Of a DNA stretch of 64,000 nt, positions 8,163 to 58,442 are shown one piece after another. Source of the stretch: the human T2T-CHM13v2.0 reference genome, Homo sapiens. The notes beneath the pieces are model-generated. The model made no database searches. It had not been told where the DNA came from and worked only from the letters and a program-made list of their open reading frames with translations. The stretch lies in assembly GCF_009914755.1 (NCBI RefSeq), contig NC_060937.1. One strand, 5' to 3'. Both the position numbers and the translations under genes were made by a program. The stretch's first letter is position 1. Every line of letters starts with the position of its first letter.

Positions 8163-11100
8163 GTTCTAGTCGGTGAGATGAATGCCCACATCACAAAGAG
8201 GTTTCTATGAATGCTTCTGTCTGATTTATATTGAAGATATTTCCTTTTTCACCGTAGGCCTCAGAGTGCTTAAAATATCCATTTGCAGATAGTAGAAAAG
8301 ACGGTTTCCAAACTGCTCAATCAAAGTAAAGTTCAACTCAGTGAGATGAATGCACACATCACCAAGACGTTTCTGAGAAAGATTCTGTCTCGTTTTTATG
8401 TGAAGATATTTCCTGTTTCCCCAGAGGCATCAATGGGCTCACAAATATTCCTTTGCATATTCTACAAAATGACTGTTTAGAAGGTGCTCAATCAAAAAAA
8501 AAGTTCAACAGTGTGAGATGAATGCGCCCATTCAAAGGAAGTTTCTCAGAATTCTTCTATCTAGTTTTTATGTGAAGATATTTCCTTTTTCACTATAGGC
8601 CACAAAGTGCTCCAAATATCCACTTGCAGACTCTACAAAACGAGTGTATCCACACTGCTCAATCAAAAGAAAATTTCAACTGTGTGAGATGAATGCACAC
8701 ATCAAAATAAATTTCTCCAAAACTTCTGCCTACTTTTTATGGGAAGATATTTCGTTTTTCAACGTAGGCCAAAAGCACTCCAAATATCAATTTGCAGATT
8801 CTACAAAAAGACTGTTTCCAAACTGCTCAATCAACAGAAAGTTTCAACCCGGTGAGTAGAAGTCACACATGACAAAATAGTTTCTCAGAAAGTATCTGTC
8901 TAGTTTTTACGTGAAGATATTTCCTATCACCCCAGAAGCCTCAATGGGCTCACAAATATTCCTTTGCAGATTCTACAAAACGACAGTTTCAAAACTGCTG
9001 AATCAAAAGAAAGGTTCAACTCTGTGAGATGAATGCACAGATCACAAATAAGTTTCTCAGAATGCTGCTGTCTAGTTTTTATGGGAAGAGATTTCCTTTT
9101 CCACCATAGGCCTCAAAGCTCTCCAAATAGCCATTTGCAGATACTGTAAAAAGACTGTTTCCAAACTGCTGAATCAAAAGAAAGGTTGAACTCCATGAGT
9201 TGAATGCACACGTCACAAAGAAGTTTCTCAGAATGCTTCTGTCTAGTTTTTATGGGAAGATATTTTCTTTTCCACCATAGGCCTCAAAGCGCTGAAAATA
9301 TCCACTTGAAGATTCTACAGAAAGAGAGTTTCAAAACTGCTCAAACAAAAGAAAGATTCAACTCTGTGAGATGAATGCACACATCACAAAGAAGTTTCTC
9401 AGAATGCTTCTGTCTAGTTTTATGTAAAGATATTTCCTTTTCTACTATAGGCCACAAAGCACTCCAAATATCAACTTGCAGATTCTGCAGAAAGAGTTTT
9501 TCAAAGCTGCTCAATCAAAAGAAAAGTTCAACTCTTTGAGATGAATGCACACATCATGAAGTTCCTCAGAATGCTTCTATTTTTATGTGAAGATATATCC
9601 TTTTCTACCATAGACCACAAAACTCTCCAAATATCCCCTTGCAGTTTCTACTAAAAGAGTGTTTCCAAACGGCTCAATCAAAAGAAAGTTTCAACTCTGT
9701 GAGATAAATGCACACATCATTAAGAAGTTTCTCAGTAATTTTCTGTCTAGTTTTTATGTGAAGATATTTCCTTTCCTACTATAGGCCTGAAAGTGCTGCA
9801 AATATCCGTTTGCAGATACTGCAAAAAGACTGTTTCCACACTGCTCAATCAAAGGAAATGTCCAACTCTGTGAGTTGAATGCACGCATCACAGAGAGATT
9901 ATTTCTAATGATTCTGTCTAGTTTTGATGTGAAGATATTTGCTTTTCCACCAGTGGCCTCAAACTCTCCAAATATCCACTTGCAGATTCTACAATAAGAG
10001 TGTTTCAAAACTGCTCAATCAAAGAAAGGTTCAACACTGTGAGATGAATGCACACGTCACAAAGCACTTTCTTAGAATGCTTCTGTCTAGCTTTTATGTG
10101 AAGATATTTCCTTTTTCACCATAGGCTGCAAAGCGCTCCAAATATCCCTTTCAGATTCTACAGAAAGAGTGTTTCAAAACTGTTCAATCAAAAGAGAAAC
10201 TCAACTCTGGTGATGAATGCACGCATCACAAAGCAGTTTCTCATAATGTTTCTGTCTAGTTTTTATGTGAAGATATTTCATTCTCCACTATAGGCCGTAA
10301 TGCACTCCTAATATCCACTTGCAGATTCTACAAAAAGACTGTTTGCAAACTGCTCAAACAAAAGAAAAGTTCAACTCTGTGAGTTGAATGAGCACATCAC
10401 AAAGAAGTTTCTCAGAATGCTTCTGTCTAGTTTTTATGTCAATATATTTCCTTTTCCACTATAGGCCGTCATGCGCTCCAAATATCCACTTGCAGATTCT
10501 ACAAAAAGACTGTTTCCAAGCTGCTCAATCAAAAGAAAAGCTCAACTCTGTGAGTTGAATGAGCACATCCCAAAGAAGTTCCTCAGAGTGCTTCTATCTA
10601 GTTTTTATGTGAATATATTTGCTTTTCCACCACAGGCCACAAACCCTCCAAATATCCACTTGAAGATTCTACAAAAAGAGTGCCTCAAAAATGCGCAATC
10701 AAAACAAAGGTTCAACTCTTCGAGATGGACGCACACAACACAAAGAAGCTTCTCAGAATGTTTCTGTCTGGTTTTTTTGTGAAGATATTTCCTTTTCCAC
10801 CGTAGTCCTCAAGTCTCTCCAAATATCTACTTTCAGAATCTCCAAAAAGAGTGTTTTAAAACTGCTGTACCAAAGAAAGTTTCATGTCGGAGATATGACT
10901 GCATACAACACAGAGAACTTTCTCAAAGTGCTTCTGTTTATTTTTCTTATGAAGATATTTCCTTTTCCACTATGGGCCACAGAGTGCTCCAAATATCCAC
11001 TGGCAGATTCTACAAAAAGGGTGTTTCAAAACTGCTCAATCAATAGAAAGTTTGAAGTCTGTGAGATGAATGTACACATCACAAAGGAGTTTCTAAGAAT

Positions 11101-12076
11101 GCTTCCATCTGAATTTTATGTGAGGATATTTCCTTTTTCACCATAGGCCTCAGTACACTCCAAATATCCATTTACAGATAATACAAATGACTGTATCCAA
11201 ACTGCTCAATCAAAAGAAAGTTCAACTCTGTATGATGAATGCACACATCACAAGGGTGTTTCTCAGAAAGATTTTGTGTAGTTTTTAGGTGAAGATATTT
11301 CTTATTTCCCCAGAGGCCTCAATGGGCTCTCAAATATTCCCTTTCATATTCTACTAAATGACTGTATCGAAGCTGCTCAATCAAAAGACGGGTTTAACAG
11401 TGTGAGACGAAAATACACCTTCCTAGGAAGTTTCTCAGAATTCTTCTTTCTAGTTTTTTATGTGAAGATATTTCCTTTTCCACTATAGGCCTCAAAGCGT
11501 TCCAAATATCCAATTGCAGATACTACAAATAGAGCGTTTCAAAACTGCTCAATCAAAAGAAAGGTTCAACTCTGTGAGATGAATGCAGACATCAAAAAGA
11601 AGTTTCTCAGCATGCTTCCGCCTTGTTTTTATGTGAAGATATTTCCTTTTCCACCATAGGTCTCAAAGCACTGGTAATATCCATTTGCAGATACTACAAA
11701 AAGACTGTCCCCAAACTGCTCAATAAAAAGAAAGTTTCAACTCTAGGAGTTAAAAGCAAATATCACAAAGAAGTTTCTCAGAAACTTTCTATCTAGTTTT
11801 TATGTGAACGTATTTCTTATCACCCCATAGACCTCAATCGGCTCACAAGTATCCTTCTGCAGATTGTAAAAAACTACTGTTTCCAAACTGCTCAATCTCA
11901 GGAAAGGTTTAACTTTGTGAGATGAATGCATCCATCACAGAGAAGTTTCTCAGAATGCTTCCGTCTCGTTTCCATGTGAAGAAGATTCCTTTTCCACCAT
12001 ATTCCTCATGCGCTCCAAATAAACACTTGCAGATTCCGCTAAAAGAGTGTTTCAAAACTGCTCAATCAAAAGAAAG
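8163..12076 (-). repeat. HOR copy 3, canonical 23-mer
   Basis: Marker spacing 8283 to 12197 = 3914. Confidence 0.93.
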
Positions 12077-15000
12077 GTTCTAGTCGGTGAGATGAATGCA
12101 CACATCACAAAGAAGTTTCTATGAATGCTTCTGTCTGATTTATATTGAAGATATTTCCTTTTTCACCGTAGGCCTCAGGGTGCTTAAAATATCCATTTGC
12201 AGATACTAGAAAAGACTGTTTCCAAACTGCTCAATCAAAATAAAGTTCAACTCAGTGAGATGAATGCACACATCACCAAGACGTTTCTGAGAAAGATTCT
12301 GTCTCGTTTTTATGTGAAGATATTTCCTGTTTCCCCAGAGGCATCAATGGGCTCACAAATATTCCTTTGCATATTCTACAAAATGACTGTTTAGAAGGTG
12401 CTCAATCAAAAAAAAAGTTCAACAGTGTGAGATGAATGCGCCCATTCAAAGGAAGTTTCTCAGAATTCTTCTATCTAGTTTTTATGTGAAGATATTTCCT
12501 TTTTCACTATAGGCCACAAAGTGCTCCAAATATCCACTTGCAGACTCTACAAAACGAGTGTATCCACACTGCTCAATCAAAAGAAAATTTCAACTGTGTG
12601 AGATGAATGCACACATCAAAATAAATTTCTCCAAAACTTCTGCCTACTTTTTATGGGAAGATATTTCGTTTTTCAACGTAGGCCAAAAGCACTCCAAATA
12701 TCAATTTGCAGATTCTACAAAAAGACTGTTTCCAAACTGCTCAATCAACAGAAAGTTTCAACCCAGTGAGTAGAAGTCACACATGACAAAATAGTTTCTC
12801 AGAAAGTATCTGTCTAGTTTTTATGTGAAGATATTTCCTATCACCCCAGAAGCCTCAATGGGCTCACAAATATTCCTTTGCAGATTCTACAAAACGACAG
12901 TTTCAAAACTGCTGAATCAAAAGAAAGGTTCAACTCTGTGAGATGAATGCACAGATCACAAATAAGTTTCTCAGAATGCTGCTGTCTAGTTTTTATGGGA
13001 AGAGATTTCCTTTTCCACCATAGGCCTCAAAGCTCTCCAAATAGCCATTTGCAGATACTGTAAAAAGACTGTTTCCAAACTGCTGAATCAAAAGAAAGGT
13101 TGAACTCCATGAGTTGAATGCACACGTCACAAAGAAGTTTCTCAGAATGCTTCTGACTAGTTTTTATGTGAAGATATTTTCTTTTCCACCATAGGCCTCA
13201 AAGCGCTGAAAATATCCACTTGAAGATTCTACAGAAAGAGAGTTTCAAAACTGCTCAAACAAAAGAAAGATTCAACTCTGTGAGATGAATGCACACATCA
13301 CAAAGAAGTTTCTCAGAATGCTTCTGTCTAGTTTTATGTAAAGATATTTCCTTTTCTACTCTAGGCCACAAAGCACTCCAAATATCAACTTGCAGATTCT
13401 GCAGAAAGAGTTTTTCAAAGCTGCTCAATCAAAAGAAAAGTTCAACACTTTGAGATGAATGCACACATCATGAAGTTCCTCAGAATGCTTCTATTTTTAT
13501 GTGAAGATATATCCTTTTCTACCATAGACCACAAAACGCTCCAAATATCCCCTTGCAGTTTCTACTAAAAGAGTGTTTCCAAACGGCTCAATCAAAAGAA
13601 AGTTTCAACTCTGTGAGATGAATGCACACATCATTAAGAAGTTTCTCAGTAATTTTCTGTCTAGTTTTTATGTGAAGATATTTCCTTTCCTACTATAGGC
13701 CTGAAAGTGCTGCAAATATCCGTTTGCAGATACTGCAAAAAGACTGTTTCCACACTGCTCAATCAAAGGAAATGTCCAACTCTGTGAGTTGAATGCATGC
13801 ATCTCAAAGAGATTACTTATAATGATTCTGACTAGTTTTGATGTGAAGATATTTGCTTTTCCACCAGTGGCCTCAAACTCTCCAAATATCCACTTGCAGA
13901 TTCTACAATAAGAGTGTTTCAAAACTGCTCAATCAAAAGAAAGGTTCAACACTGTGAGATGAATGCACACGTCACAAAGCACTTTCTTAAAATGCTTCTG
14001 TCTAGCTTTTATGTGAAGATATTTCCTTTTTCACCATAGGCTGCAAAGCGCTCCAAATATCCCTTTCAGATTCTACAGAAAGAGAGTTTCAAAACTGTTC
14101 AATCAAAAGAGAAACTCAACTCTGGTGATGAATGCACGCATCACAAAGCAGTTTCTCATAATATTTCTGTCTAGTTTTTATGTGAAGATATTTCATTCTC
14201 CACTATAGGCCGTAATGCACTCCTAATATCCACTTGCAGATTCTACAAAAAGACTGTTTGCAAACTGCTCAAACAAAAGAAAAGTTCAACTCTGTGAGTT
14301 GAATGAGCACATCACAAAGAAGTTTCTCAGAATGCTTCTGTCTAGTTTTTATGTGAATATATTTCCTTTTCCACTATAGGCCGTCATGCGCTCCAAATAT
14401 CCACTTGCAGATTCTACAAAAAGACGGTTTCCAAACTGCTCAGTCAAAAGAAAAGCTCAACTCTGTGAGGTGAATGAGCACATCCCAAAGAAGTTCTTCA
14501 GAATGCTTCTATCTAGTTTTTATGTGAATATATTTGCTTTTCCACCACAGGCCACAAACCCTCCAAATATCCACTTGAAGATTCTACAAAAAGAGTGCTT
14601 CAAAAATGCGCAATCAAAAGAAAGGTTCAACTCTTCGAGATGGACGCACACATCACAAAGAAGCTTCCCAGAATGTTTCTGTCTAGTTTTATTGTGAAGA
14701 TATTTCCTTTTCCACCGTAGTCCTCAAGTCTCTCCAAATATCTACTTTCAGAATCTCCAAAAAGAGTGTTTTAAAACTGCTGTACCAAAGAAAGTTTCAT
14801 GTCTGAGATATGACTGCATACAACACAGAGAAGTTTCTCAAAGTGCTTCTGTTTATTTTTCTTATGAAGATATTTCCTTTTCCACTATGGGCCACAGAGT
14901 GCTCCAAATATCCACTGGCAGATTCTACAAAAAGGGTGTTTCAAAACTGCTCAATCAATAGAAAGTTTGAAGTCTGTGAGATGAATGTACACATCACAAA

Positions 15001-15990
15001 GGAGTTTCTAAGAATGCTTCCATCTGAATTTTATGTGAGGATATTTCCTTTTTCACCATAGGCCTCAATACACTCCAAATATCCATTTACAGATAATACA
15101 AATGACTGTATCCAAACTGCTCAATCAAAAGAAAGTTCAACTCTGTATGATGAATGCACACATCACAAGGGTGTTTCTCAGAAAGATTTTGTCTAGTTTT
15201 TAGGTGAAGATATTTCTTATTTCCCCAGAGGCCTCAATGGGCTCTCAAATATTCCCTTTCATATTCTACTAAATGACTGTATCGAAGCTGCTCAATCAAA
15301 AGACGGGTTTAACAGTGTGAGACGAAAATACACCTTCCTAGGAAGTTTCTCAGAATTCTTCTTTCTAGTTTTTTATGTGAAGATATTTCCTTTTCCACTA
15401 TAGGCCTCAAAGCGTTCCAAATATCCACTTGCAGATACTACAAATAGAGCGTTTCAAAACTGCTCAATCAAAAGAAAGGTTCAACTCTGTGAGATGAATG
15501 CAGACATCAAAAAAACTTTCTCAGAATGCTTCCGCCTTGTTTTTATGTGAAGATATTTCCTTTTTCACCATAGGCCTCAAAGCACTGGTAATATCCATTT
15601 GCAGATACTACAAAAAGACTGTTCCCAAACTGCTCAATAAAAAGAAATTTTCAACTCTATGAGATAAAAGCTAATATCACAAAGAAGTTTCTCAGAAACT
15701 TTCTATCTAGTTTTTATGTGAACATATTTCTTATCACCCCATAGACCTCAATCGGCTCACAAGTATCCTTCTGCAGATTGTAAAAAACTACTGTTTCCAA
15801 ACCGCTCAATCACAGGAAAGGTTTAACTCTGTGAAATGAATGCATCCATCACAGAGAAGTTTCTCAGAATGCTTCCGTCTCGTTTTCATGTGAAGAAGAT
15901 TCCTTTTCCACCATATTCCTCATGCGCTCCAAATAAACACTTGCAGATTCCGCTAAAAGAGTGTTTCAAAACTGCTCAATCAAAAGAAAG
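12077..15990 (-). repeat. HOR copy 4, canonical 23-mer
   Basis: Marker spacing 12197 to 16111 = 3914. Confidence 0.93.
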
Positions 15991-18900
15991 GTTCTAGTCG
16001 GTGAGATGAATGCACACATCCCAAAGAAGTTTCTATGAATGCTTCTGTCTGATTTATATTGAAGATATTTCCTTTTTCACCGTAGGCCTCAGAGTGCTTA
16101 AAATATCCATTTGCAGATACTAGAAAAGACTGTTTCCAAACTGCTCAATCAAAGTAAAGTTCAACTCAGTGAGATGAATGCACACATCACCAAGACGTCT
16201 CTGAGAAAGATTCTGTCTCGTTTTTATGTGAAGATATTTCCTGTTTCCCCAGAGGCATCAATGGGCTCACAAATATTCCTTTGCATATTCTACAAAATGA
16301 CTGTTTAGAAGGTGCTCAATCAAAAAAAAAGTTCAACAGTGTGAGATGAATGCGCCCATTCAAAGGAAGTTTCTCAGAATTCTTCTATCTAGTTTTTATG
16401 TGAAGATATTTCCTTTTTCACTATAGGCCACAAAGTGCTCCAAATATCCACTTGCAGACTATACAAAACGAGTGTATCCACACTGCACAATCAAAAGAAT
16501 ATTTCAACTGTGTGAGATGAATGCACACATCTAAATAAATTTCTCCAAAACTTCTGCCTACTTTTTATGGGAAGATATTTCGTTTTTCAACGTAGGCCAA
16601 AAGCACTCCAAATATCAATTTGCAGATTCTACAAAAAGACTGTTTCCAAACTGCTCAATCAAGAGAAAGTTTCAACCCAGTGAGTAGAAGTCACACATGA
16701 CAAAATAGTTTCTCAGAAAGTATCTGTCTAGTTTTTATGTGAAGATATTTCCTATCACCCCAGAAGCCTCAATGGTCTCACAAATATTCCTTTGCAGATT
16801 CTACAAAACGACAGTTTCAAAACTGCTGAATCAAAAGAAAGGTTCAACTCTGTGAGATTAATGCACAGATCACAAATAAGTTTCTCAGAATGCTGCTGTC
16901 TAGTTTTTATCGGAAGAGATTTCCTTTTCCACCATAGGCCTCAAAGCTCTCCAAATAGCCATTTGCAGATACTGTAAAAAGACTGTTTCCAAACTGCTGA
17001 ATCAAAAGAAAGGTTGAACTCCATGAGTTGAATGCACACGTCACAAAGAAGTTTCTCAGAATGCTTCTGACTAGTTTTTATGTGAAGATATTTTCTTTTC
17101 CACCGTAGGCCTCAAAGCGCTGAAAATATCCACTTGAAGATTCTACCAAAAGAGAGTTTCAAAACTGCTCAAACAAAAGAAAGATTCAACTCTGTGAGAT
17201 GAATGCACACATCACAAAGAAGTTTCTCAGAATGCTTCTGTCTAGTTTTATGTAAAGATATTTCCTTTTCTACTATAGGCCACAAAGCACTCCAAATATC
17301 AACTTGCAGATTCTGCAGAAAGAGTTTTTCAAAGCTGCTCAATCAAAAGAAAAGTTCAACTCTTTGAGATGAATGCACACATCATGAAGTTCCTCAGAAT
17401 GCTTCTATTTTTATGTGAAGATATAGCCTTTTCTACCATAGACCACAAAACGCTCCAAATATCCCCTTGCAGTTTCTACTAAAAGAGTGTTTCCAAACGG
17501 CTCAATCAAAAGAAGTTTCAACTCTGTGAGATGAATGCACACATCATTAAGAAGTTTCTCAGTAATTTTCTGTCTAGTTTTTATGTGAAGATATTTCCTT
17601 TCCTACTATAGGCCTGAAAGTGCTCCAAATATCCGTTAGCAGATACTGCAAAAAGACTGTTTCCAAACTGCTCAATCAAAGGAAATGTCCAACTCTGTGA
17701 GTTGAATGCACGCATCTCAAAGAGATTACTTATAATGATTCTGTCTAGTTTTGATGTGAAGATATTTGCTTTTCCACCAGTGGCCTCAAACTCTCCAAAT
17801 ATCCACTTGCAGATTCTACAATAAGAGTGTTTCAAAACTGCTCAATCAAAAGAAAGGTTCAACACTGTGAGATGAATGCACACGTCACAAAGCACTTTCT
17901 TAGAATGCTTCTGTCTAGCTTATATGTGAAGATATTTCTTTTTCACCATAGGCTGCAAAGCGCTCCAAATATCCCTTTCAGATTCTACAGAAAGAGTGTT
18001 TCAAAACTGTTCAATCAAAAGAGAAATTCAACTCTGGTGATGAATGCACGCATCACAAAGCAGTTTCTCATAATGTTTCTGTCTAGTTTTTATGTGAAGA
18101 TATTTCATTTTCCACTATAGGCCGTAATGCACTCCTAATATCCACTTGCAGATTCTACAGAAAGACTGTTTGCAAACTGCTCAAACAAAAGAAAAGTTCA
18201 ACTCTGTGAGTTGAATGAGCACATCACAAAGAAGTTTCTCAGAATGCTTCTGTCTAGTTTTTATGTGAATATATTTCCTTTTCTACTACAGGCCGTAATG
18301 CGCTCCAAATATCCACCTGCAGATTCTACAAAAAGACAGTTTCCAAACTGCTCAATCAAAAGAAAAGTTCAACTCTGTGAGTTGAATGAGCACATCACAA
18401 AGAAGTTTCTCAGAATGCTTCTATCTAGTTTTTATGTGAATATATTTCCTTTTCCACCACAGGCCAAAAACACTCCAAATATCCACTTGAAGATTCTACA
18501 AAAAGAGTGCTTCAAAAATGCTCAATCAAAAGAAAGGTTCAACTCTTTGAGATGGATGCACACATCACAAAGAAGCTTCTCAGAATGTTCCTGTCTAGTT
18601 TTTTTGTGAAGATATTTCCTTTTCCACCGTAGTCCTCAAGTCTCTCCAAATATCTACTTTCAGAATCTCCAAAAAGAGTGTTTTAAAACTGCTGTACCAA
18701 AGACATTTTCATGTCTGAGATATGACTGCATACAACACAGAGAAGTTTCTCAAAGTGCTTCTGTTTATTTTTTTTATGAAGATATTTCCTTTTCCACTAT
18801 TGGCCACAGAGTGCTCCAAATATCCACTGGCAGATTCTACAAAAAGAGTGTTTCAAAACTGCTCAATCAATAGAAAGTTTGAAGTCTGTGAGATGAATGC

Positions 18901-19903
18901 ACACATCACAAAGGAGTTTCTAAGAATGCTTCCATCTGAATTTTATGTGAGGATATTTCCTTTTTCACCATAGGCCTCAATACACTCCAAATATCCATTT
19001 ACAGATAATACAAATGACTGTATCCAAACTGCTCAATCAAAAGAAAGTTCAACTGTGTATGATGAATGCACACATCACAAGGGTGTTTCTCAGAAAGTTT
19101 TTGCCTAGCTTTTAGGTGAAGATATTTCTTATTTCCCCAGAGGTCTCAATGGGCTCTCAAATATTCCCTTTCATATTCTACTAAATGACTGTATCGAAGC
19201 TGCTCAATCAAAAGACGGGTTTAACAGTGTGAGACGAAAATACACCTTCCTAGGAAGTTTCTCAGAATTCTTCTTTCTAGTTTTTTATGTGAAGATATTT
19301 CCTTTTCCACTATAGGCCTCAAAGCGTTCCAAATATCCACTTGCAGAAACTACAAATAGAGCGTTTCAGAACTGCTCAATCAAAAGAAAGGTTCAACTCT
19401 GTGAGATGAATGCAGACATCAAAAAGAAGTTTCTCAGAATGCTTCTGCCTTGTTTTTATGTGAAGATATTTCCTTTTTCACCATAGGCCTCAAAGCACTG
19501 GTAATATCCATTTGCAGATACTACAAAAAGACTGTTCCCAAACTGCTCAATAAAAAGAAAGTTTCAACTCTATGAGATAAAAGCAAATATCACAAAGAAG
19601 TTTCTCAGAAACTTTCTATCTAGTTTTTATGTGAACATATTTCTTATCACCCCATAGACCTCAATCGGCTCACAAGTATCCTTCTGCAGATTGTAAAAAA
19701 CTACTGTTTCCAAACCGCTCAATCACAGGAAAGGTTTAACTCTGTGAAATGAATGCATCCATCACAGAGAAGTTTCTCAGAATGCTTCCGTCTCGTTTTT
19801 ATGTGAAGAAGATTCCTTTTCCACCATATTCCTCATGCGCTCCAAAGAAACACTTGCAGATTCCGCTAAAAGAGTGTTTCAAAACTGCTCAATCAAAAGA
19901 CAG
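15991..19903 (-). repeat. HOR copy 5, canonical 23-mer
   Basis: Marker spacing 16111 to 20024 = 3913. Confidence 0.93.
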
Positions 19904-21609
19904 GTTCTAGTCGGTGAGATGAATGCACACATCACAAAGACGTTTCTATGAATGCTTCTGTCTGATTTATATTGAAGATATTTCCTTTTTCACCGTAGGC
20001 CTCAGAGTGCTTAAAATATCCATTTGCAGATACTAGAAAAGACTGTTTCCAAACTGCTCAATCAAAATAAAGTTCAACTCAGTGAGATGAATGCACACAT
20101 CACCAAGACGATTCTGACAAAGATTCTGTCTCGTTTTTATGTGAAGATATTTCCTGTTTCCCCAGAGGCATCAATGGGCTCACAAATATTCCTTTGCATA
20201 TTCTACAAAATGACTGTTTAGAAGGTGCTGAATCAAAAAAAAAGTTCAACAGTGTGAGATGAATGCGCCCATTCAACGGAAGTTTCTCAGAATTCTTCTA
20301 TCTAGTTTTTATGTGAAGATATTTCCTTTTTCACTATAGGCCAGAAAGTGCTCCAAATATCCACTTGCAGACTCTACAAAACGAGTGTATCCACACTGCT
20401 CAATCAAAAGAAAATTTCAACTGTGTGAGATGAATGCACACATCAAAATAAATTTCTCCAAAACTTCTGCCTACTTTTTATGGGAAGATATTTCGTTTTT
20501 CAACGTAGGCCAGAAGCACTCCAAATATCAATTTGCAGATTCTACAAAAAGACTGTTTCCAAACTGCTCAATCAAGAGAAAGTTTCAACCTGGTGAGTAG
20601 AAGTCACACATGACAAAATAGTTTCTCAGAAAGTATCTGTCTAGTTTTTATGTGAAGATATTTCCTATCACCCCAGAAGCCTCAATGGGCTCACAAATAT
20701 TCCTTTGCAGATTCTACAAAACGACAGTTTCAAAACTGCTGAATCAAAAGAAAGGTTCAACTCTGTGAGATGAATGCACAGATCACAAATAAGTTTCTCA
20801 GAATGCTGCTGTCTAGTTTTTATGGGAAGATATTTCCTTTCCCACCATAGGCCTCAAAGCTCTCCAAATAGCCATTTGCAGATACTGTAAAAAGACTGTT
20901 TCCAAACTGCTGTATCAAAAGAAAGGTTGAACTCCATGAGTTGAATGCACACGTCACAAAGAAGTTTCTCAGAATGCTTCTGACTAGTTTTTATGTGAAG
21001 ATATTTTCTTTTCCACAGTAGGCCTCAAAGCACTGAAAATATCCACTTGCAGAAACTACAAATAGAGCGTTTCAGAACTGCTCAATCAAAAGAAAGGTTC
21101 AACTCTGTGAGATGAATGCAGACATCAAAAAGAAGTTTCTCAGAATGCTTCTGCCTTGTTTTTATGTGAAGATATTTCCTTTTTCACCATAGGCCTCAAA
21201 GCACTGGTAATATCCATTTGCAGATACTACAAAAAGACTGTTCCCAAACTGCTCAATAAAAAGAAAGTTTCAACTCTATGAGATAAAAGCAAATATCACA
21301 AAGAAGTTTCTCAGAAACTTTCTATCTAGTTTTTATGTGAACATATTTCTTATCACCCCATAGACCTCAATCGGCTCACAAGTATCCTTCTGCAGATTGT
21401 AAAAAACTACTGTTTCCAAACCGCTCAATCACAGGAAAGGTTTAACTCTGTGAAATGAATGCATCCATCACAGAGAAGTTTCTCAGAATGCTTCCGTCTC
21501 GTTTTTATGTGAAGAAGATTCCTTTTCCACCATATTCCTCATGCGCTCCAAAGAAACACTTGCAGATTCCGCTAAAAGAGTGTTTCAAAACTGCTCAATC
21601 AAAAGACAG
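19904..21609 (-). repeat. HOR copy 6, 10-mer variant produced by a 1706-bp tandem duplication
   Basis: Marker spacing 20024 to 21730 = 1706; chimeric monomer at ~21000-21080. Confidence 0.92.
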
Positions 21610-24600
21610 GTTCTAGTCGGTGAGATGAATGCACACATCACAAAGACGTTTCTATGAATGCTTCTGTCTGATTTATATTGAAGATATTTCCTTTTTCACC
21701 GTAGGCCTCAGAGTGCTTAAAATATCCATTTGCAGATACTAGAAAAGACTGTTTCCAAACTGCTCAATCAAAATAAAGTTCAACTCAGTGAGATGAATGC
21801 ACACATCACCAAGACGATTCTGACAAAGATTCTGTCTCGTTTTTATGTGAAGATATTTCCTGTTTCCCCAGAGGCATCAATGGGCTCACAAATATTCCTT
21901 TGCATATTCTACAAAATGACTGTTTAGAAGGTGCTGAATCAAAAAAAAAGTTCAACAGTGTGAGATGAATGCGCCCATTCAACGGAAGTTTCTCAGAATT
22001 CTTCTATCTAGTTTTTATGTGAAGATATTTCCTTTTTCACTATAGGCCAGAAAGTGCTCCAAATATCCACTTGCAGACTCTACAAAACGAGTGTATCCAC
22101 ACTGCTCAATCAAAAGAAAATTTCAACTGTGTGAGATGAATGCACACATCAAAATAAATTTCTCCAAAACTTCTGCCTACTTTTTATGGGAAGATATTTC
22201 GTTTTTCAACGTAGGCCAGAAGCACTCCAAATATCAATTTGCAGATTCTACAAAAAGACTGTTTCCAAACTGCTCAATCAAGAGAAAGTTTCAACCTGGT
22301 GAGTAGAAGTCACACATGACAAAATAGTTTCTCAGAAAGTATCTGTCTAGTTTTTATGTGAAGATATTTCCTATCACCCCAGAAGCCTCAATGGGCTCAC
22401 AAATATTCCTTTGCAGATTCTACAAAACGACAGTTTCAAAACTGCTGAATCAAAAGAAAGGTTCAACTCTGTGAGATGAATGCACAGATCACAAATAAGT
22501 TTCTCAGAATGCTGCTGTCTAGTTTTTATGGGAAGATATTTCCTTTCCCACCATAGGCCTCAAAGCTCTCCAAATAGCCATTTGCAGATACTGTAAAAAG
22601 ACTGTTTCCAAACTGCTGTATCAAAAGAAAGGTTGAACTCCATGAGTTGAATGCACACGTCACAAAGAAGTTTCTCAGAATGCTTCTGACTAGTTTTTAT
22701 GTGAAGATATTTCCTTTTCCACTATAGGCCTCAAAGCGTTCCAAATATCCACTTGAAGATTCTACAAATGAGAGTTTCAAAACTGCTCAAACAAAAGAAA
22801 GATTCAACTCTGTGAGATGAATGCACACATCACAAAGAAGTTTCTCAGAATGCTTCTGTCTAGTTTTATGTAAAGATATTTCCTTTTCTACTATAGGCCA
22901 CAAAGCACTCCAAATATCAACTTGCAGATTCTGCAGAAAGAGTTTTTCAAAGCTGCTCAATCAAAAGAAAAGTTCAACTCTTTGAGATGAATGCACACAT
23001 CAGGAAGTTCCTCAGAATGCTTCTATTTTTATGTGAAGATATAGCCTTTTCTACCATAGACGACAAAACGCTCCAAATATCCCCTTGCAGTTTCTACTAA
23101 AAGAGTGTTTCCAAACTGCTCAATCAAAAGAAGTTTCAACTCTGTGAGATGAATGCACTCATCAATAAGAAGTTTCTCAGTAATTTTCTGTCTAGTTTTT
23201 ATGTGAAGATATTTCCTTTCCTACTATAGGCCTGAAAGTGCTCCAAATATCCGTTTGCAGATACTGCAAAAAGACTGTTTCCAAACTGCTCAATCAAAGG
23301 AAATGTCCAAATCTGTGAGTTGAATGCACGCATCTCAAAGAGATTACTCATAATGATTCTGTCTAGTTTTGATGTGAAGATATTTGCTTTTCCACCAGTG
23401 GCCTCAAACTCTCCAAATATCCACTTGCAGATTCTACAATAAGAGTGTTTCAAAACTGCTCAATCAAAAGAAAGGTTCAACACTGTGAGATGAATGCACA
23501 CGTCACAAAGCACTTTCTTAGAATGCTTCTGTCTAGCTTTTATGTGAAGATATTTCCTTTTTCACCATAGGCTGCAAAGCGCTCCAAATATCCCTTTCAG
23601 ATTCTACAGAAAGAGTGTTTCAAAACTGTTCAATCAAAAGAGAAACTCAACTCTGGTGATGAATGCACGCATCACAAAGCAGTTTCTCATAATGTTTCTG
23701 TCTAGTTTTTATGTGAAGATATTTCATTTTCCACTATAGGCCGTAATGCACTCCTAATATCCACTTGCAGATTCTACAGAAAGACTGTTTGCAAACTGCT
23801 CAAACAAAAGAAAAGTTCAGCTCTGTGAGTTGAATGAGCACATCACAAAGAAGTTTCTCAGAATGCTTCTGTCTAGTTTTTATGTGAATATATTTCCTTT
23901 TCCACTATAGGCCGTAATGCGCTCCAAATATCCACCTGCAGATTCTACAAAAAGACCGTTTCCAAAGTGCTCAATCAAAAGAAAAGTTCAACTCTGTGAG
24001 TTGAATGAGCACATCACAAAGAAGTTTCTCACAATGCTTCTATCTAGTTTTTATGTGAATATATTCCCTTTTCCACCACAGGCCACAAACACTCCAAATA
24101 TCCACTTGAAGATTCTACAAAAAGAGTGCTTCAAAAATGCTCAATCAAAAGAAAGGTTCAACTCTTTGAGATGGATGCACACATCACAAAGAAGCTTCTC
24201 AGAATGTTCCTGTCTAGTTTTTTTGTGAAGATATTTCCTTTTCCACCGTAGTCCTCAAGTCTCTCCAAATATCTACTTTCAGCATCTCCAAAAAGAGTGT
24301 TTTAAAACTGCTGTACCAAAGAAAGTTTCGTGTCTGAGATATGACTGCATACAACACAGAGAAGTTTCTCAAAGTGCTTCTGTTTATTTTTTTTATGAAG
24401 ATATTTCCTTTTCCACTATGGGCCACAGAGCGCTCCAAATATTCACTGGCAGATTCTACAAAAAGAGTGTTTCAAAACTGCTCAATCAATAGAAAGTTTG
24501 AAGTCTGTGAGATGAATGCACACATCACAAAGGAGTTTCTAAGAATGCTTCCATCTGAATTTTATGTGAGGATATTTCCTTTTTCACCATAGGCCTCAAT

Positions 24601-25522
24601 ACACTCCAAATATCCATTTACAGATAATACAAATGACTGTATCCAAACTGCTCAATCAAAAGAAAGTTCAACTGTGTATGATGAATGCACACATCACAAG
24701 GGTGTTTCTCAGAAAGTTTTTGTCTAGCTTTTAGGTGAAGATATTTCTTATTTCCCCAGAGGTCTCAATGGGCTCTCAAATATTCCCTTTCATATTCTAC
24801 TAAATGACTGTATCGAAGCTGCTCAATCAAAAGACGGGTTTAACAGTGTGAGACGAAAATACACCTTCCTAGGAAGTTTCTCAGAATTCTTCTGTCTAGT
24901 TTTTTATGTGAAGATATTTCCTTTTCCACTATAGGCCTCAAAGCGTTCCAAATATCCACTTGCAGATACTACAAATAGAGCGTTTCAAAACTGCTCAATC
25001 AAAAGAAAGGTTCAACTCTGTGAGATGAATGCAGACATCAAAAAGAAGTTTCTCAGAATGCTTCTGCCTTGTTTTTATGTGAAGATATTTCCTTTTTCAC
25101 CATAGGCCTCAAAGCACTGGTAATATCCATTTGGAGATACTACAAAAAGACTGTTCCCAAACTGCTCAATAAAAAGAAAGTTTCAACTCTATGAGATAAA
25201 AGCAAATATCACAAAGAAGTTTCTCAGAAAATTTCTATCTAGTTTTTATGTGAACATATTTCTTATCACCCCATAGACCTCAATCGGCTCACAAGTATCC
25301 TTCTGCAGATTGTAAAAAACTACTGTTTCCAAACCGCTCAATCACAGGAAAGGTTTAACTCTGTGAAATGAATGCATCCATCACAGAGAAGTTTCTAAGA
25401 ATGCTTCCGTCTCGTTTTTATGTGAAGAAGATTCCTTTTCCACCATATTCCTCATGCGCTCCAAAGAAACACTTGCAGATTCCGCTAAAAGAGTGTTTCA
25501 AAACTGCTCAATCAAAAGAAAG
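21610..25522 (-). repeat. HOR copy 7, 23-mer (one monomer carries a foreign ~45-bp patch at ~22711-22755)
   Basis: Marker spacing 21730 to 25643 = 3913. Confidence 0.92.
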
Positions 25523-28500
25523 GTTCTAGTCGGTGAGATGAATGCACACATCACAAAGACGTTTCTATGAATGCTTCTGTCTGATTTATATTGAAGATAT
25601 TTCCTTTTTCACCGTAGGCCTCAGAGTGCTTAAAATATCCATTTGCAGATACTAGAAAAGACTGTTTCCAAACTGCTCAATCAAAATAAAGTTCAACTCA
25701 GTGAGATGAATGCACACATCACCAAGACGTTTCTGAGAAAGATTCTGTCTCGTTTTTATGTGAAGATATTTCCTGTTTCCCCAGAGGCATCAAGGGGCTC
25801 ACAAATATTCCTTTGCATATTCTACAAAATGACTGTTTAGAAGGTGCTGAATCAAAAAAAAAGTTCAACAGTGTGAGATGAATGCGCCCATTCAACGGAA
25901 GTTTCTCAGAATTCTTCTATCTAGTTTTTATGTGAAGATATTTCCTTTTTCACTATAGGCCAGAAAGTGCTCCAAATATCCACTTGCAGACTCTACAAAA
26001 CGAGTGTATCCACACTGCTCAATCAAAAGAAAATTTCAACTGTGTGAGATGAATGCACACATCAAAATAAATTTCTCCAAAACTTCTGCCTACTTTTTAT
26101 GGGAAGATATTTCGTTTTTCAACGTAGGCCAAAAGCACTCCAAATATCAATTTGCAGATTCTACAAAAAGACTGTTTCCAAACTGCTCAATCAAGAGAAA
26201 GTTTCAACCTGGTGAGTAGAAGTCACACATGACAAAATAGTTTCTCAGAAAGTATCTGTCTAGTTTTTATGTGAAGATATTTCCTATCACCCCAGAAGCC
26301 TCAATGGGCTCACAAATATTCCTTTGCAGATTCTACAAAACGACAGTTTCAAAACTGCTGAATCAAAAGAAAGGTTCAACTCTGTGAGATGAATGCACAG
26401 ATCACAAATAAGTTTCTCAGAATGCTGCTGTCTAGTTTTTATGGGAAGATATTTCCTTTCCCACCATAGGCCTCAAAGCTCTCCAAATAGCCATTTGCAG
26501 ATACTGTAAAAAGACTGTTTCCAAACTGCTGTATCAAAAGAAAGGTTGAACTCCATGAGTTGAATGCACACGTCACAAAGAAGTTTCTCAGAATGCTTCT
26601 GACTAGTTTTTATGTGAAGATATTTTCTTTTCCACAGTAGGCCTCAAAGCGCTGAAAATATCCACTTGAAGATTCTACAAATGAGAGTTTCAAAACTGCT
26701 CAAACAAAAGAAAGATTCAACTCTGTGAGATGAATGCACACATCACAAAGAAGTTTCTCAGAATGCTTCTGTCTAGTTTTATGTAAAGATATTTCCTTTT
26801 CTACTATAGGCCACAAAGCACTCCAAATATCAACTTGCAGATTCTGCAGAAAGAGTTTTTCAAAGCTGCTCAATCAAAAGAAAAGTTCAACTCTTTGAGA
26901 TGAATGTACACATCAGGAAGTTCCTCAGAATGCTTCTATTTTTATGTGAAGATATAGCCTTTTCTACCATAGACCACAAAACGCTCCAAATATCCCCTTG
27001 CAGTTTCTACTAAAAGAGTGTTTCCAAACTGCTCAATCAAAAGAAGTTTCAACTCTGTGAGATGAATGCACTCATCAATAAGAAGTTTTTCAGTAATTTT
27101 CTGTCTAGTTTTTATGTGAAGATATTTCCTTTCCTACTATAGGCCTGAAAGTGCTCCAAATATCCGTTTGCAGATACTGCAAAAAGACTGTTTCCAAACT
27201 GCTCAATCAAAGGAAATGTCCAACTCTGTGAGTTGAATGCACGCATCTCAAAGAGATTACTCATAATGATTCTGTCTAGTTTTGATGTGAAGATATTTGC
27301 TTTTCCACCAGTGGCCTCAAACTCTCCAAATATCCACTTGCAGATTCTACAATAAGAGTGTTTCAAAACTGCTCAATCAAAAGAAAGGTTCAACACTGTG
27401 AGATGAATGCACACGTCACAAAGCACTTTCTTAGAATGCTTCTGTCTAGCTTTTATTTGAAGATATTTCCTTTTTCACCATAGGCTGCAAAGCGCTCCAA
27501 ATATCCCTTTCAGATTCTACAGAGAGAGTGTTTCAAAACTGTTCAATCAAAAGAGAAACTCAACTCTGGTGATGAATGCACGCATCACAGAGCAGTTTCT
27601 CATAATGTTTCTGTCTATTTTTTATGTGAAGTTATTTCATTTTCCACTATAGGCCGTAATGCACTCCTAATATCCACTTGCAGATTCTACAAAAAGACTG
27701 TTTGCAAACTGCTCAAACAAAAGAAAATTTCAACTCTGTGAGTTGAATGAGCACATCACAAAGAAGTTTCTCAGAATGCTTCTGTCTAGTTTTTATGTGA
27801 ATATATTTCCTTTTCCACTATAGGCCGTAATGTGCTCCAAATATCCACCTGCAGATTCTACAAAAAGACTGTTTCCAAAGTGCTCAATCAAAAGAAAAGT
27901 TCAACTCTGTGAGATGAATGAGCACATCACAAAGAAGCTTCTCAGAATGTTTCTGTCTAGTTTTTTTGTGGAGATATTTCCTTTTCCACCGTAGTCCTCA
28001 AGTCTCTCCAAATACCTACTTTCAGAATCTCCAAAAAGAGTGTTTTAAAACTGCTGTACCAAAGAAAGTTTCATGTCTGAGTTATGACTGCATACAACAC
28101 AGAGAAGTTTCTCAAAGTGCTTCTGTTTATTTTTTTTATGAAGATATTTCCTTTTCCACTATTGGCCACAGAGCGCTCCAAATATCCACTGGCAGATTCT
28201 ACAAAAAGAGTGTTTCAAAACTGCTCAATCAATAGAAAGTTTGAAGTCTGTGAGATGAATGCACACATCACAAAGGAGTTTCTAAGAATGCTTCCATCTG
28301 AATTTTATGTGAGGATATTTCCTTTTTCACCATAGGCCTCAGTACACTCCAAATATCCATTTACAGATAATACAAATGACTGTATCCAAACTGCTCAATC
28401 AAAAGAAAGTTCAACTGTGTATGATGAATGCACAAATCACAATGGTGTTTCTCAGAAAGTTTTTGTCTAGTTTTTAGGTGAAGATATTTCTTATTTCCCC

Positions 28501-29265
28501 AGAGGCCTCAATGGGCTCTCAAATATTCCCTTTCATATTCTACTAAATGACTGTATCGAAGCTGCTCAATCAAAAGACGGGTTTAACAGTGTGAGACGAA
28601 AATACACCTTCCTAGGATGTTTCTCAGAATTCTTCTTTCTAGTTTTTTATGTGAAGATATTTCCTTTTCCACTATAGGCCTCAAAGCGTTCCAAATATCC
28701 ACTTGCAGATACTACAAATAGAGCGTTTCAAAACTGCTCAATCAAAAGAAAGGTTCAACTCTGCGAGATGAATGCAGACATCAAAAAGAAGTTTCTCAGA
28801 ATGCTTCTGCCTTGTTTTTATGTGAAGATATTTCCTTTTTCAAAATAGGCCTCAAAGCACTGGTAATATCCATTTGCAGATACTACAAAAAGACTGTTCC
28901 CAAACTGCTCAATAAAAAGAAAGTTTCAACTCTAGCAGATAAAAGCAAATATCACAAAGAAGTTTCTCAGAAACTTTCTATCTATTTTTTATGTGAACAT
29001 ATTTCTTATCACCCCATAGACCTCAATCGGCTCACAAGTATCCTTCTGTAGATTATGAAAAACTACTGTTTCCAAACCGCTCAATCACAGGAAAGGTTTA
29101 ACTCTGTGAAATGAATGCATCCATCACAGAGAAGTTTCTCAGAATGCTTCCGTCTCGTTTTTATGTGAAGAAGATTCCTTTTCCACCATATTCCTCATGC
29201 GCTCCAAATAAACACTTGCAGATTCCGCTAAAAGAGTGTTTCAAAACTGCTCAATCAAAAGAAAG
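25523..29265 (-). repeat. HOR copy 8, 22-mer variant (1-monomer deletion)
   Basis: Marker spacing 3743; hybrid monomer GAATGAGCACATCACAAAGAAG-CTTCTCAGAATGTTTC at ~27916-27953. Confidence 0.92.
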
Positions 29266-31430
29266 GTTCTAGTCGGTGAGATGAATGTACACATCCCAAA
29301 GAAGTTTCTATGAATGCTTCTGTCTGATTTATATTGAAGATATTTCCTTTTTCACCGTAGGCCTCAGAGTGCTTAAAATATCCATTTGCAGATACTAGAA
29401 AAGACTGTTTCCAAACTGCTCAATCAAAATAAAGTTCAACTCAGTGAGATGAATGCACACATCACCAAGACGTTTCTGAGAAAGATTCTGTCTCGTTTTT
29501 ATGTGAAGATATTTCCTGTTTCCCCAGAGGCATCAATGGGCTCACAAATATTCCTTTGCATATTCTACAAAATGACTGTTTAGAAGGTGCTCAATCAAAA
29601 AAAAAGTTCAACAGTGTGAGATGAATGCGCCCATTCAAAGGAAGTTTCTCAGAATTCTTCTATCTAGTTTTTATGTGAAGATATTTCCTTTTTCACTATA
29701 GGCCACAAAGTGCTCCAAATATCCACTTGCAGACTCTGCAAAACGAGTGTATCCACACTGCTCAATCAAAAGAAAATTTCAACTGTGTGAGATGAATGCA
29801 CACATCAAAATAAATTTCTCCAAAACTTCTGCCTACTTTTTATGGGAAGATATTTCGTTTTTCAACGTAGGCCAAAAGCACTCCAAATATCAATTTGCAG
29901 ATTCTACAAAAAGACTGTTTCCAAACTGCTCAATCAAGAGAAAGTTTCAACCCGGTGAGTAGAAGTCACACATGACAAAATAGTTTCTCAGAAAGTATCT
30001 GTCTAGTTTTTATGTGAAGATATTTCCTATCACCCCAGAAGCCTCAATGGGCTCACAAATATTCCTTTGCAGATTCTACAAAACGACAGTTTCAAAACTG
30101 CTGAATCAAGAGAAAGGTTCAACTCTGTGAGATGAATGCGCAGATCACAAATAAGTTTCTCAGAATGCTGCTGTCTAGTTTTTATGGGAAGATATTTCCT
30201 TTTCCACCATAGGCCTCAAAGCTCTCCAAATATCCATCTGCAGATACTGTAAAAAGACTGTTTCCAAACTGCTGAATCAAAAGAAAGGTTGAACTCCATG
30301 AGTTGAATGCACACGTCACAAAGAAGTTTCTCAGAATGCTTCTGACTAGTTTTTATGTGAAGATATTTTCTTTTCCACCATAGGCCTCAAAGCGCTGAAA
30401 ATATCCACTTGAAGATTCTACAGAAAGAGAGTTTCAAAACTGGTCAAACAAAAGAATGATTCAACTCTGTGAGATGAATGCACACTTCACAAAGCACTTT
30501 CTTAGAATGCTTCTGTCTAGCTTTTATTTGAAGATATTTCCTTTTTCACCATAGGCTGCAAAGCACTCCAAATATCCCTTTCAGATTCTACAGAGAGAGT
30601 GTTTCAAAACTGTTCAATCAAAAGAGAAATTCAACTCTGGTGATGAATGCACGCATCACAGAGCAGTTTCTCATAATGTTTCTGTCTATTTTTTATGTGA
30701 AGTTATTTCATTTTCCACTATAGGCCGTAATGCACTCCTAATATCCACTTGCAGATTCTACAAAAAGACTGTTTGCAAACTGCTCAAACAAAAGAAAAGT
30801 TCAACTCTGTGAGTTGAATGAGCACATCACAAAGAAGTTTCTCAGAATGCTTCTGTCTAGTTTTTATGTGAATATATTTCCTTTTCCACTATAGGCCGTA
30901 ATGCGCTCCAAATATCCACCTGCAGATTCTACAAAAAGACTGTTTCCAAACTGCTCAATCAAAAGAAAAGTTCAACTCTGTGAGATGAATGAGCACATCA
31001 CAAAGAAGTTTCTCAGAATGCTTCTATCTAGTTTTTATGTGAATATATTTCCTTTTCCACCACAGGCCACAAACACTCCAAATATCCACTTGAAGATTCT
31101 ACAAAAAGAGTGCTTCAAAAATGCTCAATCAAAAGAAAGGTTCAACTCTTCGAGATGGATGCACACATCACAAAGAAGCTTCTCAGAATGTTTCTGTCTA
31201 GTTTTTTTGTGAAGATATTTCCTTTTCCACCGTAGTCCTCAAGTCTCTCCAAATATCTACTTTCAGAATCTCCAAAAAGAGTGTTTTAAAACTGCTGTAC
31301 CAAAGAAAGTTTCATGTCTGAGATATGACTGCATACAACACAGAGAAGTTTCTCAAAGTGCTTCTGTTTATTTTTTTTATGAAGATATTTCCTTTTCCAC
31401 TATGGGCCACAGAGCGCTCCAAATATCCAC
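29266..31430 (-). repeat. HOR copy 9, terminal partial unit with an internal 4-monomer deletion
   Basis: Marker-to-MRSKYP distance is 1515 vs 2188 in copy 2 (673 bp shorter); HOR identity is lost after ~31430. Confidence 0.9.
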
Positions 31431-52272: not shown

Positions 52273-52300
52273 TTAGAATTTATTTTATTTTATTATTATT
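52267..52300 (-). terminator. L1 polyadenylation signal and degenerate poly(A) tail
   Basis: TTTTTTTTAGAATTTATTTTATTTTATTATTATT; AATAAA on the minus strand at 52289-52294. Confidence 0.8.
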
Positions 52301-56316: not shown

Positions 56317-56379
56317 TATGATGTTAGCTGGTTATTTTGCTCTTTAGTTGATGTAGTTTCTTACTAGCCACAATGGTCT

Positions 56380-58420: not shown

Positions 58421-58442
58421 ACTGCTGCCTCATTTGCCAGTT

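What the first reader, a model, noticed from the sequence alone, without database searches (positions are those of the whole stretch)
19290..22770. 1706-bp tandem duplication with reciprocal chimeric junctions, a possible re-integrated satellite circle (eccDNA)
Seen: 19341-21000 is repeated almost exactly at +1706, sharing private variants (ACGATTCTGACAAAG, GGCCAGAAGCAC, AAAAGACAGGTTCTAG). Call the monomer at ~19270-19370 X and the one at ~26595-26690 Y, each with left, middle and right parts (L, M, R). Junction 1 (~21000-21080) reads L(Y) M(Y) R(X): TTTTCTTTTCCACAGTAGG...TGAAAATATCCACTTG|CAGAAACTACAAATAGAGCG. The end of the second copy (~22681-22770) reads L(Y) M(X) R(Y): CTGACTAG...|TTCCTTTTCCACTATAGGCCTCAAAGCGTTCCAAATATCCACTTG|AAGATTCTACAAATGAG. 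A single unequal crossover gives one hybrid and cannot place M(X) at the distal end. Inference: a 10-monomer circle closed at L(Y)|M(X) and inserted at M|R of monomer Y gives exactly this order. Alternatives are a double template switch, a separate gene conversion, or an assembly artefact.
Basis: partly seen in the sequence, partly recalled or inferred. Interest (0 to 1): 0.8.

Follow-up and report, generated by a model that had tools for sequence, protein, structure and literature searches.

The report
Satellite duplication with swapped junction segments
A 1.7-kb tandem duplication inside a chromosome 13 short-arm alpha-satellite array is real, and a twin copy on chromosome 21 shows that it began as an ordinary unequal crossover and that the odd "reciprocal" junctions on chromosome 13 come from a later swap of a short segment between the two repeat ends.

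Summary
Window 19331-21006 equals 21037-22712 base for base (1676 bp, offset 1706). It is a 10-monomer duplication inside one copy of a 23-monomer alpha-satellite HOR.

The junction monomer (20977) reads L(G) M(G) R(T).

The same genome carries the same duplication on chr21 at about 8.2413-8.2449 Mb, with the same private variants and 99.8% identical flanks. There the structure is simple. The junction monomer is L(G)|M(T)R(T) and the distal G is unmodified.

chr13 differs from chr21 by an exact reciprocal swap of the M segment (30 bp or more) between two positions 1706 bp apart.

No other internal foreign patch of this size (four or more sites) occurs in 1,068 HOR monomers on chr13, chr14 and chr21.

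Best reading: plain unequal crossover first, then one reciprocal exchange between the two repeat ends on the chr13 lineage. Pop-out and re-insertion of a circle is one physical route to that swap. It is not needed to create the duplication and cannot be told apart from other routes here. Interest is moderate.

The parts
1..31360 (+). 23-monomer alpha-satellite HOR array. It runs on upstream of the window to about chr13:11.1556 Mb. Structural variants inside it: an extra H-I pair at 1245-1910, monomer O missing at 27949|27950, and H-K missing at 30509|30510.
   Evidence: Monomer chopping and clustering; TRF period 171
19270..19441 (+). Its R part carries private variants.
   Evidence: Alignments
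19331..21006 (+). Duplicate copy 1, the stretch that is perfectly identical to copy 2.
   Evidence: 0 mismatches to +1706
20977..21147 (+). Junction hybrid monomer L(G) M(G) | R(T). The G-type M segment is 21007-21036 and includes a private A at 21032. The G to T switch lies within 21037-21049.
   Evidence: (pattern ggggxggg|tttttttt); the 31-mer around 21032 is unique in the genome
21037..22712 (+). Duplicate copy 2.
22683..22852 (+). Distal monomer G carrying an internal T-type patch: L(G) | M(T) 22713-22742 | R(G).
   Evidence: (ggg|ttttt|gggggggg); its M(T)|R(G) joint is unique in the genome
26596..26765 (+). It is unmodified and shows the ancestral state of M(G) and R(G) for this sub-lineage.

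Best explanation
I propose a two-step history.

Step 1. G and T are the second most similar pair of the 23 HOR monomers (90%). An out-of-register homologous exchange between them, within the 19-bp stretch identical in both at the L|M boundary, produced an ordinary 10-monomer (1706-bp) tandem duplication. It had one hybrid monomer, L(G)|M(T)R(T), followed after the second copy by an intact G. The chr21 array still shows this form. The duplication is shared by chr13 and chr21 because their short-arm arrays are near-identical pseudo-homologous copies.

Step 2. On the chr13 lineage the two ends of the duplication paired with each other, that is, the hybrid monomer with the distal G, one unit out of register. 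They exchanged a segment reciprocally. Its right end lies in the 13-bp identical stretch after M. Its left end lies anywhere in the 1.7 kb of identical sequence to the left. M(G) moved into the junction monomer and M(T) into the distal G.

Because both changes sit on one DNA molecule, the exchange was most likely intramolecular. It could have been a double crossover between direct repeats, which is formally pop-out and re-insertion of one unit. It could also have been a branch-migrated symmetric heteroduplex left unrepaired.

Shown: both structures, their identity by descent, and the exact reciprocity. Inferred: the polarity (chr21 form older) and the physical mechanism of the swap.
For: - chr21 has the same 1706-bp duplication (8241341-8243065 against +1706, 1 mismatch), with the same private variants.
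- chr13 window 4000-33891 and chr21 are collinear. They show 63 differences in 29.9 kb and only one 1-bp indel. Thirteen of the 63 lie in two 30-bp patches exactly 1706 bp apart.
- Swapping those two 30-bp segments in the chr21 copy reproduces chr13 19200-22900 except at 19227, 21032 and 22517.
- The chr21 junction monomer is ggg|ttttttttttttt at 16 diagnostic sites and the chr21 distal G is pure G. This is what one crossover predicts.
- G-T consensus identity is 90.1%, rank 2 of 253 pairs.
- All other structural-variant junctions in the three arrays are single-breakpoint hybrids: D/E, M/N, G/K and I/x.
- Among 1,068 HOR monomers only the chr13 distal G has an internal foreign patch that gains 4 or more sites.
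- 0 of 46 other G and 0 of 43 other T monomers are G/T mosaics.
- The M(G) in the chr13 junction monomer carries the CACAG sub-variant. Otherwise that is found only in the distal G of chr21 and in the next G of both chromosomes, so it came from that position or its neighbour.
Against: - Polarity rests on parsimony only. No outgroup haplotype was available, and a swap works equally in both directions.
- One exchange point lies where the partners are only about 90% alike, in a 13-bp identical stretch flanked by mismatches, although 1.7 kb of perfect homology lies next to it. This is unexpected for homologous exchange. Exchanges wholly inside the identical part would be invisible, however.
- The junction monomer's M(G) has an extra base change (21032 A) found nowhere else in the genome. 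A pure swap does not explain it, so a later mutation or an error-prone step is needed.
- Only one genome was examined, and read-level support for the assembly was not checked.
Confidence: 0.55

Rival explanations
1. Two separate non-reciprocal gene conversions, or an unrepaired heteroduplex at the original junction plus one later conversion. One route: the original crossover left heteroduplex over M, which segregated into L(G)M(G)R(T) and L(G)M(T)R(T) junction forms, and the distal G on chr13 was later converted by a junction monomer carrying M(T), in trans from chr21 or a sister. The other route: starting from the chr21 form, the junction monomer was converted by a G, and the distal G was converted by the junction monomer, in two events.
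For: Conversion-like in-register tracts are active in this array after the chr13/chr21 split. Two clusters of differences (window 4286-4543 and 12114-12350) match variants shared by several chr21 HOR copies. Both conversions would use the long identical sequence on the left, and a tract can run to the edge of homology. Passages read in PMC12724521 report that 14 of 103 de novo short-arm SNVs, 8 of them in alpha satellite, look like interlocus conversions.
Against: It needs two events whose right ends fall in the same 13-bp interval and whose content is exactly reciprocal. Yet no other G/T patch exists in 89 other G and T monomers, nor in 1,068 HOR monomers.
Confidence: 0.15
2. A 1706-bp circle (eccDNA) closed at L(G)|M(T) was inserted at the M|R boundary of a G monomer and thereby created the chr13 duplication. 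The chr21 form came from the same kind of circle integrating inside the homologous part, or from a later swap.
For: The order on chr13 is exactly a circular permutation of the unit. Intrachromatid recombination between G and T, or between the two duplicate copies, would release such a circle. eccDNA-mediated spread of satellites is a proposed mechanism in papers I saw only as search listings (PMC2543021, PMC7403614).
Against: The chr21 form is fully explained by one unequal crossover, so a circle is not needed for the origin of the duplication. The supposed circle joint exists as a chromosomal joint. Integration would have to occur at a 13-bp identity inside about 90% homology while 1.7 kb of perfect homology was available. 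No direct trace of a circle can exist in an assembly.
Confidence: 0.12
3. One complex break repair produced the chr13 form directly. A double-strand break at M|R in G was followed by both ends invading the out-of-register T. The left end copied R(T) through F and L(G). The right end copied M(T). The two new strands then annealed in the 19-bp identical stretch (two-ended synthesis-dependent strand annealing, or break-induced replication with template switches). The chr21 form would then be separate or derived.
For: It explains in one event why the junction monomer and the distal monomer share the M|R boundary. Error-prone repair synthesis could account for the private change at 21032. Out-of-register break-induced replication has been proposed for HOR evolution (bioRxiv 10.1101/731430, abstract seen in the listing).
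Against: It leaves the chr21 form unexplained. That form shares the same private variants and the same HOR copy, so a second event is needed anyway. None of the other structural-variant junctions shows such complexity.
Confidence: 0.08
4. An assembly, polishing or chr13/chr21 assignment artefact, or a change that arose in the CHM13 cell line.
For: The two arrays are 99.8% identical, and between window 19228 and 25793 they differ only by the two patches and one SNV. The region is therefore hard to assign to the right chromosome.
Against: The two patches are only 1.7 kb apart, so any long accurate read phases them. A mapping shift of one unit would also have altered R. The junction monomer carries a unique variant, which argues for real reads of that sequence. 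Not testable here.
Confidence: 0.07

Closest known systems
Structural-variant HOR copies with hybrid monomers, produced by out-of-register unequal crossover in alpha satellite (HORmon, PMC9248890; review PMC9549924; both seen only as search listings)
   Same: It is an in-register duplication of a whole number of monomers, with a hybrid monomer at the junction, between two highly similar monomer types. The chr21 copy is a textbook case.
   Different: On chr13 the junction monomer and the monomer beyond the second copy have exchanged a segment of 30 bp or more. No single crossover gives this, and none of the other junctions in these arrays shows it.
The chr21 '23/25mer HOR array' of T2T-CHM13, described by Gluncic et al. 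2025 (PMC12385485; passages read)
   Same: It is the same HOR family and the same array on chr21, from 8,180,952. Their second variant copy, which lacks t10-t22, corresponds to the 10-monomer partial copy. They also note a period-33 pattern.
   Different: In the passages I read they describe the order of monomer types only. There was no junction sequence analysis, no chr13 array and no comparison of junction forms. I did not see their supplementary figures.
Pseudo-homologous regions of acrocentric short arms (Guarracino et al. 2023, PMC10172130; passages read)
   Same: They report a core region shared at more than 99% identity by chr13, chr14 and chr21, in the same orientation on chr13 and chr21 and inverted on chr14. 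This array shows the same orientation pattern, and chr13 against chr21 is 99.8% identical.
   Different: I did not confirm that these coordinates lie inside their defined regions. Their work concerns exchange between chromosomes, not this local rearrangement.
eccDNA excision and re-integration of satellite repeats (listings only)
   Same: The chr13 order equals a circularly permuted unit inserted into a monomer.
   Different: There is no joint unique to a circle, and a simple chromosomal precursor exists on chr21.

Membership tests
HOR structural variant by unequal crossover | Tandem duplication of a whole number of monomers, in register | tested here: met
   10 monomers (T-F), 1706 bp, 1676 bp identical
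HOR structural variant by unequal crossover | Exactly one hybrid monomer with one breakpoint, and flanking monomers unchanged | tested here: not met
   Met on chr21. Not met on chr13, where the distal G carries an internal T patch
HOR structural variant by unequal crossover | Parental monomers similar enough to pair out of register | tested here: met
   G-T 90.1% identity, rank 2 of 253 pairs
Non-reciprocal interlocus gene conversion | A short patch identical to a donor, with the donor left unchanged | tested here: inconclusive
   The patch is identical to M(T). Relative to chr21, however, both partners changed reciprocally. Polarity is not established.
Re-integrated eccDNA | The insert is a circular permutation of a nearby chromosomal segment | tested here: met
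   Permuting the two units of the chr21 copy gives the chr13 order
Re-integrated eccDNA | A circle-closure joint that no chromosomal arrangement explains | tested here: not met
   The L(G)|M(T) joint is the ordinary crossover joint of the chr21 duplication
Re-integrated eccDNA | Physical evidence of the circle | not testable with these tools
   No read or Circle-seq data are available here
Assembly artefact | Long reads fail to support the structure | not testable with these tools
   No reads are available

The most novel reading that the evidence does not exclude
One 1706-bp unit popped out of the tandem duplication as a free alpha-satellite circle. It re-entered the chromosome by homeologous recombination at the M|R boundary of the G monomer. 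In that case the chr21/chr13 pair would preserve the 'before' and 'after' states of an eccDNA re-integration in human satellite DNA within one genome.
Probability: 0.12. Interest if true: 0.75.

Novelty: new variant of a known kind. Interest (0 to 1): 0.45.

Why it matters
Alpha-satellite arrays are thought to evolve by unequal crossover and gene conversion, but individual events are rarely caught with both a 'before' and an 'after' sequence. Here two near-identical paralogous arrays in one complete genome differ by an exactly reciprocal exchange of a short segment between the two ends of a recent duplication. Reciprocal exchange between direct repeats on one molecule is hard to see in natural human DNA. 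It may be a double crossover, a symmetric heteroduplex, or a pop-out followed by re-insertion.

The four junction forms can be told apart by short diagnostic sequences. Pangenome assemblies could therefore show which intermediates exist, and so which mechanism acts on acrocentric short-arm satellites. This remains a single event in non-coding satellite DNA, with no known functional consequence.

Tried and rejected
- hg38 '33mer HOR' of chr21/13/14/22 (PMC6718397, Results section read). I considered it as a possible amplified 23+10 unit. I set it aside because its period is 5,639 bp, not 5,619, its copies differ by 5%, and the 2025 paper says it is absent from T2T-CHM13.
- Recombination hot spot inside the monomer. 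The breakpoints of the other structural-variant junctions are scattered: monomer positions 13-32, 62-75, 71-89, 87-98, 130-158 and 150-153. No hot spot is supported.
- Ancient internal periodicity of the HOR at a shift of 10 or 13 monomers. Mean identity at shift 13 is 0.797, no higher than at other shifts. Only the G-T pair stands out.
- The chr21 single-base difference at 8244576 as a polarity marker. It is private to chr21 copy 2 and is uninformative.
- A donor for the 21032 A variant. There is none in the genome.
- No other human haplotype or ape assembly is reachable with these tools.
Full report
WHAT IS THERE

The window is alpha satellite. TRF finds a 171-bp period over 11-52272 and again over 58443-64000. 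I chopped the window into 305 monomers and clustered them. Positions 1-31360 form a 23-monomer higher-order repeat (HOR). I label its monomers A-W. The period is about 3914 bp, and copies are mostly 95.5-99.8% alike over ungapped 400-bp blocks. The rest of the alpha satellite shows no such HOR.

The array holds several structural variants:
- an extra H-I pair at 1245-1910;
- monomer O missing at 27949|27950;
- H-K missing at 30509|30510;
- the duplication in question.

Window 19331-21006 is identical to 21037-22712, 1676 bp without a mismatch at offset 1706.

An alignment of all G and T monomers of the window shows three things:
- The junction monomer at 20977 is G-type through L and M. It switches to T-type within 21037-21049. 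From there on it carries variants private to the T at 19270.
- The monomer after the second copy (22683) is G-type in L, T-type at least over 22713-22742, and G-type again from 22756. Its R variants are shared only with the next G at 26596.
- The seven other G monomers of the window have M(G), and all seven T monomers have M(T).

THE DECISIVE NEW EVIDENCE

The window's own genome is held, and the same HOR occurs on contigs 21 and 14. I fetched those arrays and the chr13 sequence upstream of the window, then typed their monomers:
- chr13 has about 9.5 HOR copies.
- chr21 has about 19.
- chr14 has about 19, in inverted orientation, without the T-F duplication.

chr21 carries the same 1706-bp duplication (8241341-8243065 against +1706, one mismatch). 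It has the same private T variants. The F-hybrid-U junction has high-identity matches only on chr13 (100%) and chr21 (98%). The next best matches are 92%, among the 40 candidates scored out of 5,563.

Window 4000-33891 and chr21 are collinear, with 63 differences in 29.9 kb and a single 1-bp indel. All the structural variants of this part of the array are therefore shared.

On chr21 the structure is the simple one. The junction monomer (8243036) is L(G)|M(T)R(T) with one breakpoint in the 19-bp identical stretch at L|M, and the distal G (8244742) is unmodified.

Thirteen of the 63 chr13/chr21 differences lie in two 30-bp patches exactly 1706 bp apart: 21007-21036 and 22713-22742. Swapping those two segments in the chr21 copy reproduces chr13 19200-22900 except at 19227, 21032 and 22517. 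chr13 and chr21 therefore differ by an exact reciprocal swap of M between the junction monomer and the distal G.

HOW UNUSUAL IT IS

Inside the HOR arrays the only G/T mosaics are the chr13 junction monomer, the chr13 distal G and the chr21 junction monomer. None of the 46 other G monomers has a T-type M, and none of the 43 other T monomers has a G-type M. Three further mixed patterns are not HOR mosaics: two divergent monomers outside the HOR on chr13, and the first monomer at the edge of the chr14 array.

I also scanned 1,068 HOR monomers for an internal patch better explained by another monomer class. The chr13 distal G is the only internal patch gaining four or more sites. The other hits are terminal, meaning they are single-breakpoint hybrids at structural-variant junctions.

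Those other junctions are all simple single-breakpoint hybrids, and their breakpoints are scattered along the monomer:
- D/E on chr14;
- M/N on chr14;
- G/K at the array end;
- the I monomer before the extra H.

The M(T)|R(G) joint is unique in the whole genome. A 47-mer across it has one exact match, plus one unrelated 1-mismatch match on contig 3. The M(G) of the chr13 junction monomer carries one extra change (A at 21032), and a 31-mer around it is likewise unique.

G and T are the second most similar of the 253 monomer pairs (90.1%). Only the adjacent pair M-N is higher. This explains why this pair misaligned.

INTERPRETATION

The chr21 form is exactly what one out-of-register crossover between G and T predicts. 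The chr13 form is that structure with M exchanged between the two repeat ends.

A swap works in either direction. But the chr21 form needs only one simple event to arise from the unduplicated array, whereas the chr13 form needs a complex one. Parsimony therefore makes the chr21 form the older one. This is an inference, since I had no outgroup.

For the second step, the natural pairing is the hybrid monomer with the distal G, one unit out of register. These two share 1.7 kb of identical sequence on their left. Because both changes sit on one DNA molecule, an exchange between two chromatids would place only one change on each. I conclude that the exchange was most likely intramolecular. It could be a double crossover between direct repeats, which is formally the pop-out and re-insertion of one unit. 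It could also be a symmetric heteroduplex formed by branch migration and left unrepaired, which after replication puts both swapped strands in one daughter.

The left exchange point is invisible, anywhere within the 1.7 kb of identity. The right one lies in the 13-bp identical stretch after M.

It is not needed for the origin of the duplication, and it cannot be distinguished here from a concerted exchange.

RIVALS

- Two non-reciprocal conversions, or segregation of an unrepaired heteroduplex at the original junction plus one later conversion. These are plausible because in-register conversion-like tracts clearly occurred after the chr13/chr21 split: the difference clusters at window 4286-4543 and 12114-12350 match variants shared by several chr21 copies. 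But they require two tracts that end in the same 13-bp interval and have exactly reciprocal content.
- A one-step complex repair making the chr13 form directly (two-ended strand annealing or template switching). This would explain the shared M|R boundary and perhaps the extra mutation at 21032. It leaves the chr21 form to a second event.
- An assembly or assignment artefact. This is unlikely because the patches are 1.7 kb apart and any long read phases them, but I could not examine reads.

CONTEXT FROM PAPERS

- Gluncic et al. 2025 (PMC12385485; passages read) describe the chr21 '23/25mer HOR array' from 8,180,952. It has five variant copies, the second of which lacks t10-t22. That copy is the 10-monomer partial copy. 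They also describe a resulting period-33 pattern. In the passages I read there is no analysis of junction sequences and no chr13 counterpart. I did not see their supplementary figures.
- My searches for the chr13 array and the passages found in PMC11276891 gave no description of it.
- Guarracino et al. 2023 (PMC10172130; passages read) report a region around the SST1 array shared at more than 99% identity. It has the same orientation on chr13p11.2 and chr21p11.2 and is inverted on chr14p11.2. This array shows the same orientation pattern. I did not verify that it lies within their defined regions.
- Hybrid monomers (PMC9248890, PMC9549924), a break-induced-replication model of HOR evolution (bioRxiv 10.1101/731430) and eccDNA spread of satellites (PMC2543021, PMC7403614) were seen only as search listings.

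VERDICT

The circle-origin inference is not supported. The finding becomes an ordinary HOR duplication followed by an unusual, exactly reciprocal exchange of a short segment, with 'before' and 'after' states preserved on chr21 and chr13 of one genome. It is a new variant of a known kind and of moderate interest.

Noticed in passing
window 52272-58443: The alpha satellite is interrupted by a roughly 6.2-kb LINE-1 element on the minus strand. Its reading frames are broken. One ORF matches RVT_1 (E 5.7e-45) and another matches the L1 ORF1 trimerisation domain.
   Followed up: partly
window 1245-1910; chr21 loci L004-L008: An extra H-I monomer pair makes a 25-monomer variant of the HOR. It occurs once on chr13 and six times on chr21. 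The first I of each extra pair has an altered 3' end at monomer positions 150-153.
   Followed up: partly
window 4286-4543 and 12114-12350: These are clusters of 7-8 chr13/chr21 differences in the W, A and B monomers of two HOR copies. The chr21 alleles recur in about four chr21 copies. This looks like in-register homogenisation after the chr13/chr21 split.
   Followed up: partly
chr14 loci L009-L016 (array read in inverted orientation): The chr14 array has its own structural variants: N missing in several copies with M/N hybrids, D/E hybrids at 8183121 and 8179381, and a 'G A B C x F G' segment. It lacks the T-F duplication. It shares the distal array end (G followed by L M N O P) with chr13 and chr21.
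   Followed up: partly
window 21032: There is a private G to A change at a CpG inside the swapped M(G) segment, directly next to a G/T-diagnostic site. It is one of only two single-base chr13/chr21 differences in the 6.5 kb around the duplication, so it may be tied to the exchange event itself.
   Followed up: partly
window 31361-52270: Directly after the HOR array, which ends at a Q-like hybrid monomer at 31361, the alpha satellite shows no HOR except a short local five-monomer repeat seen in the clustering string.
   Followed up: no
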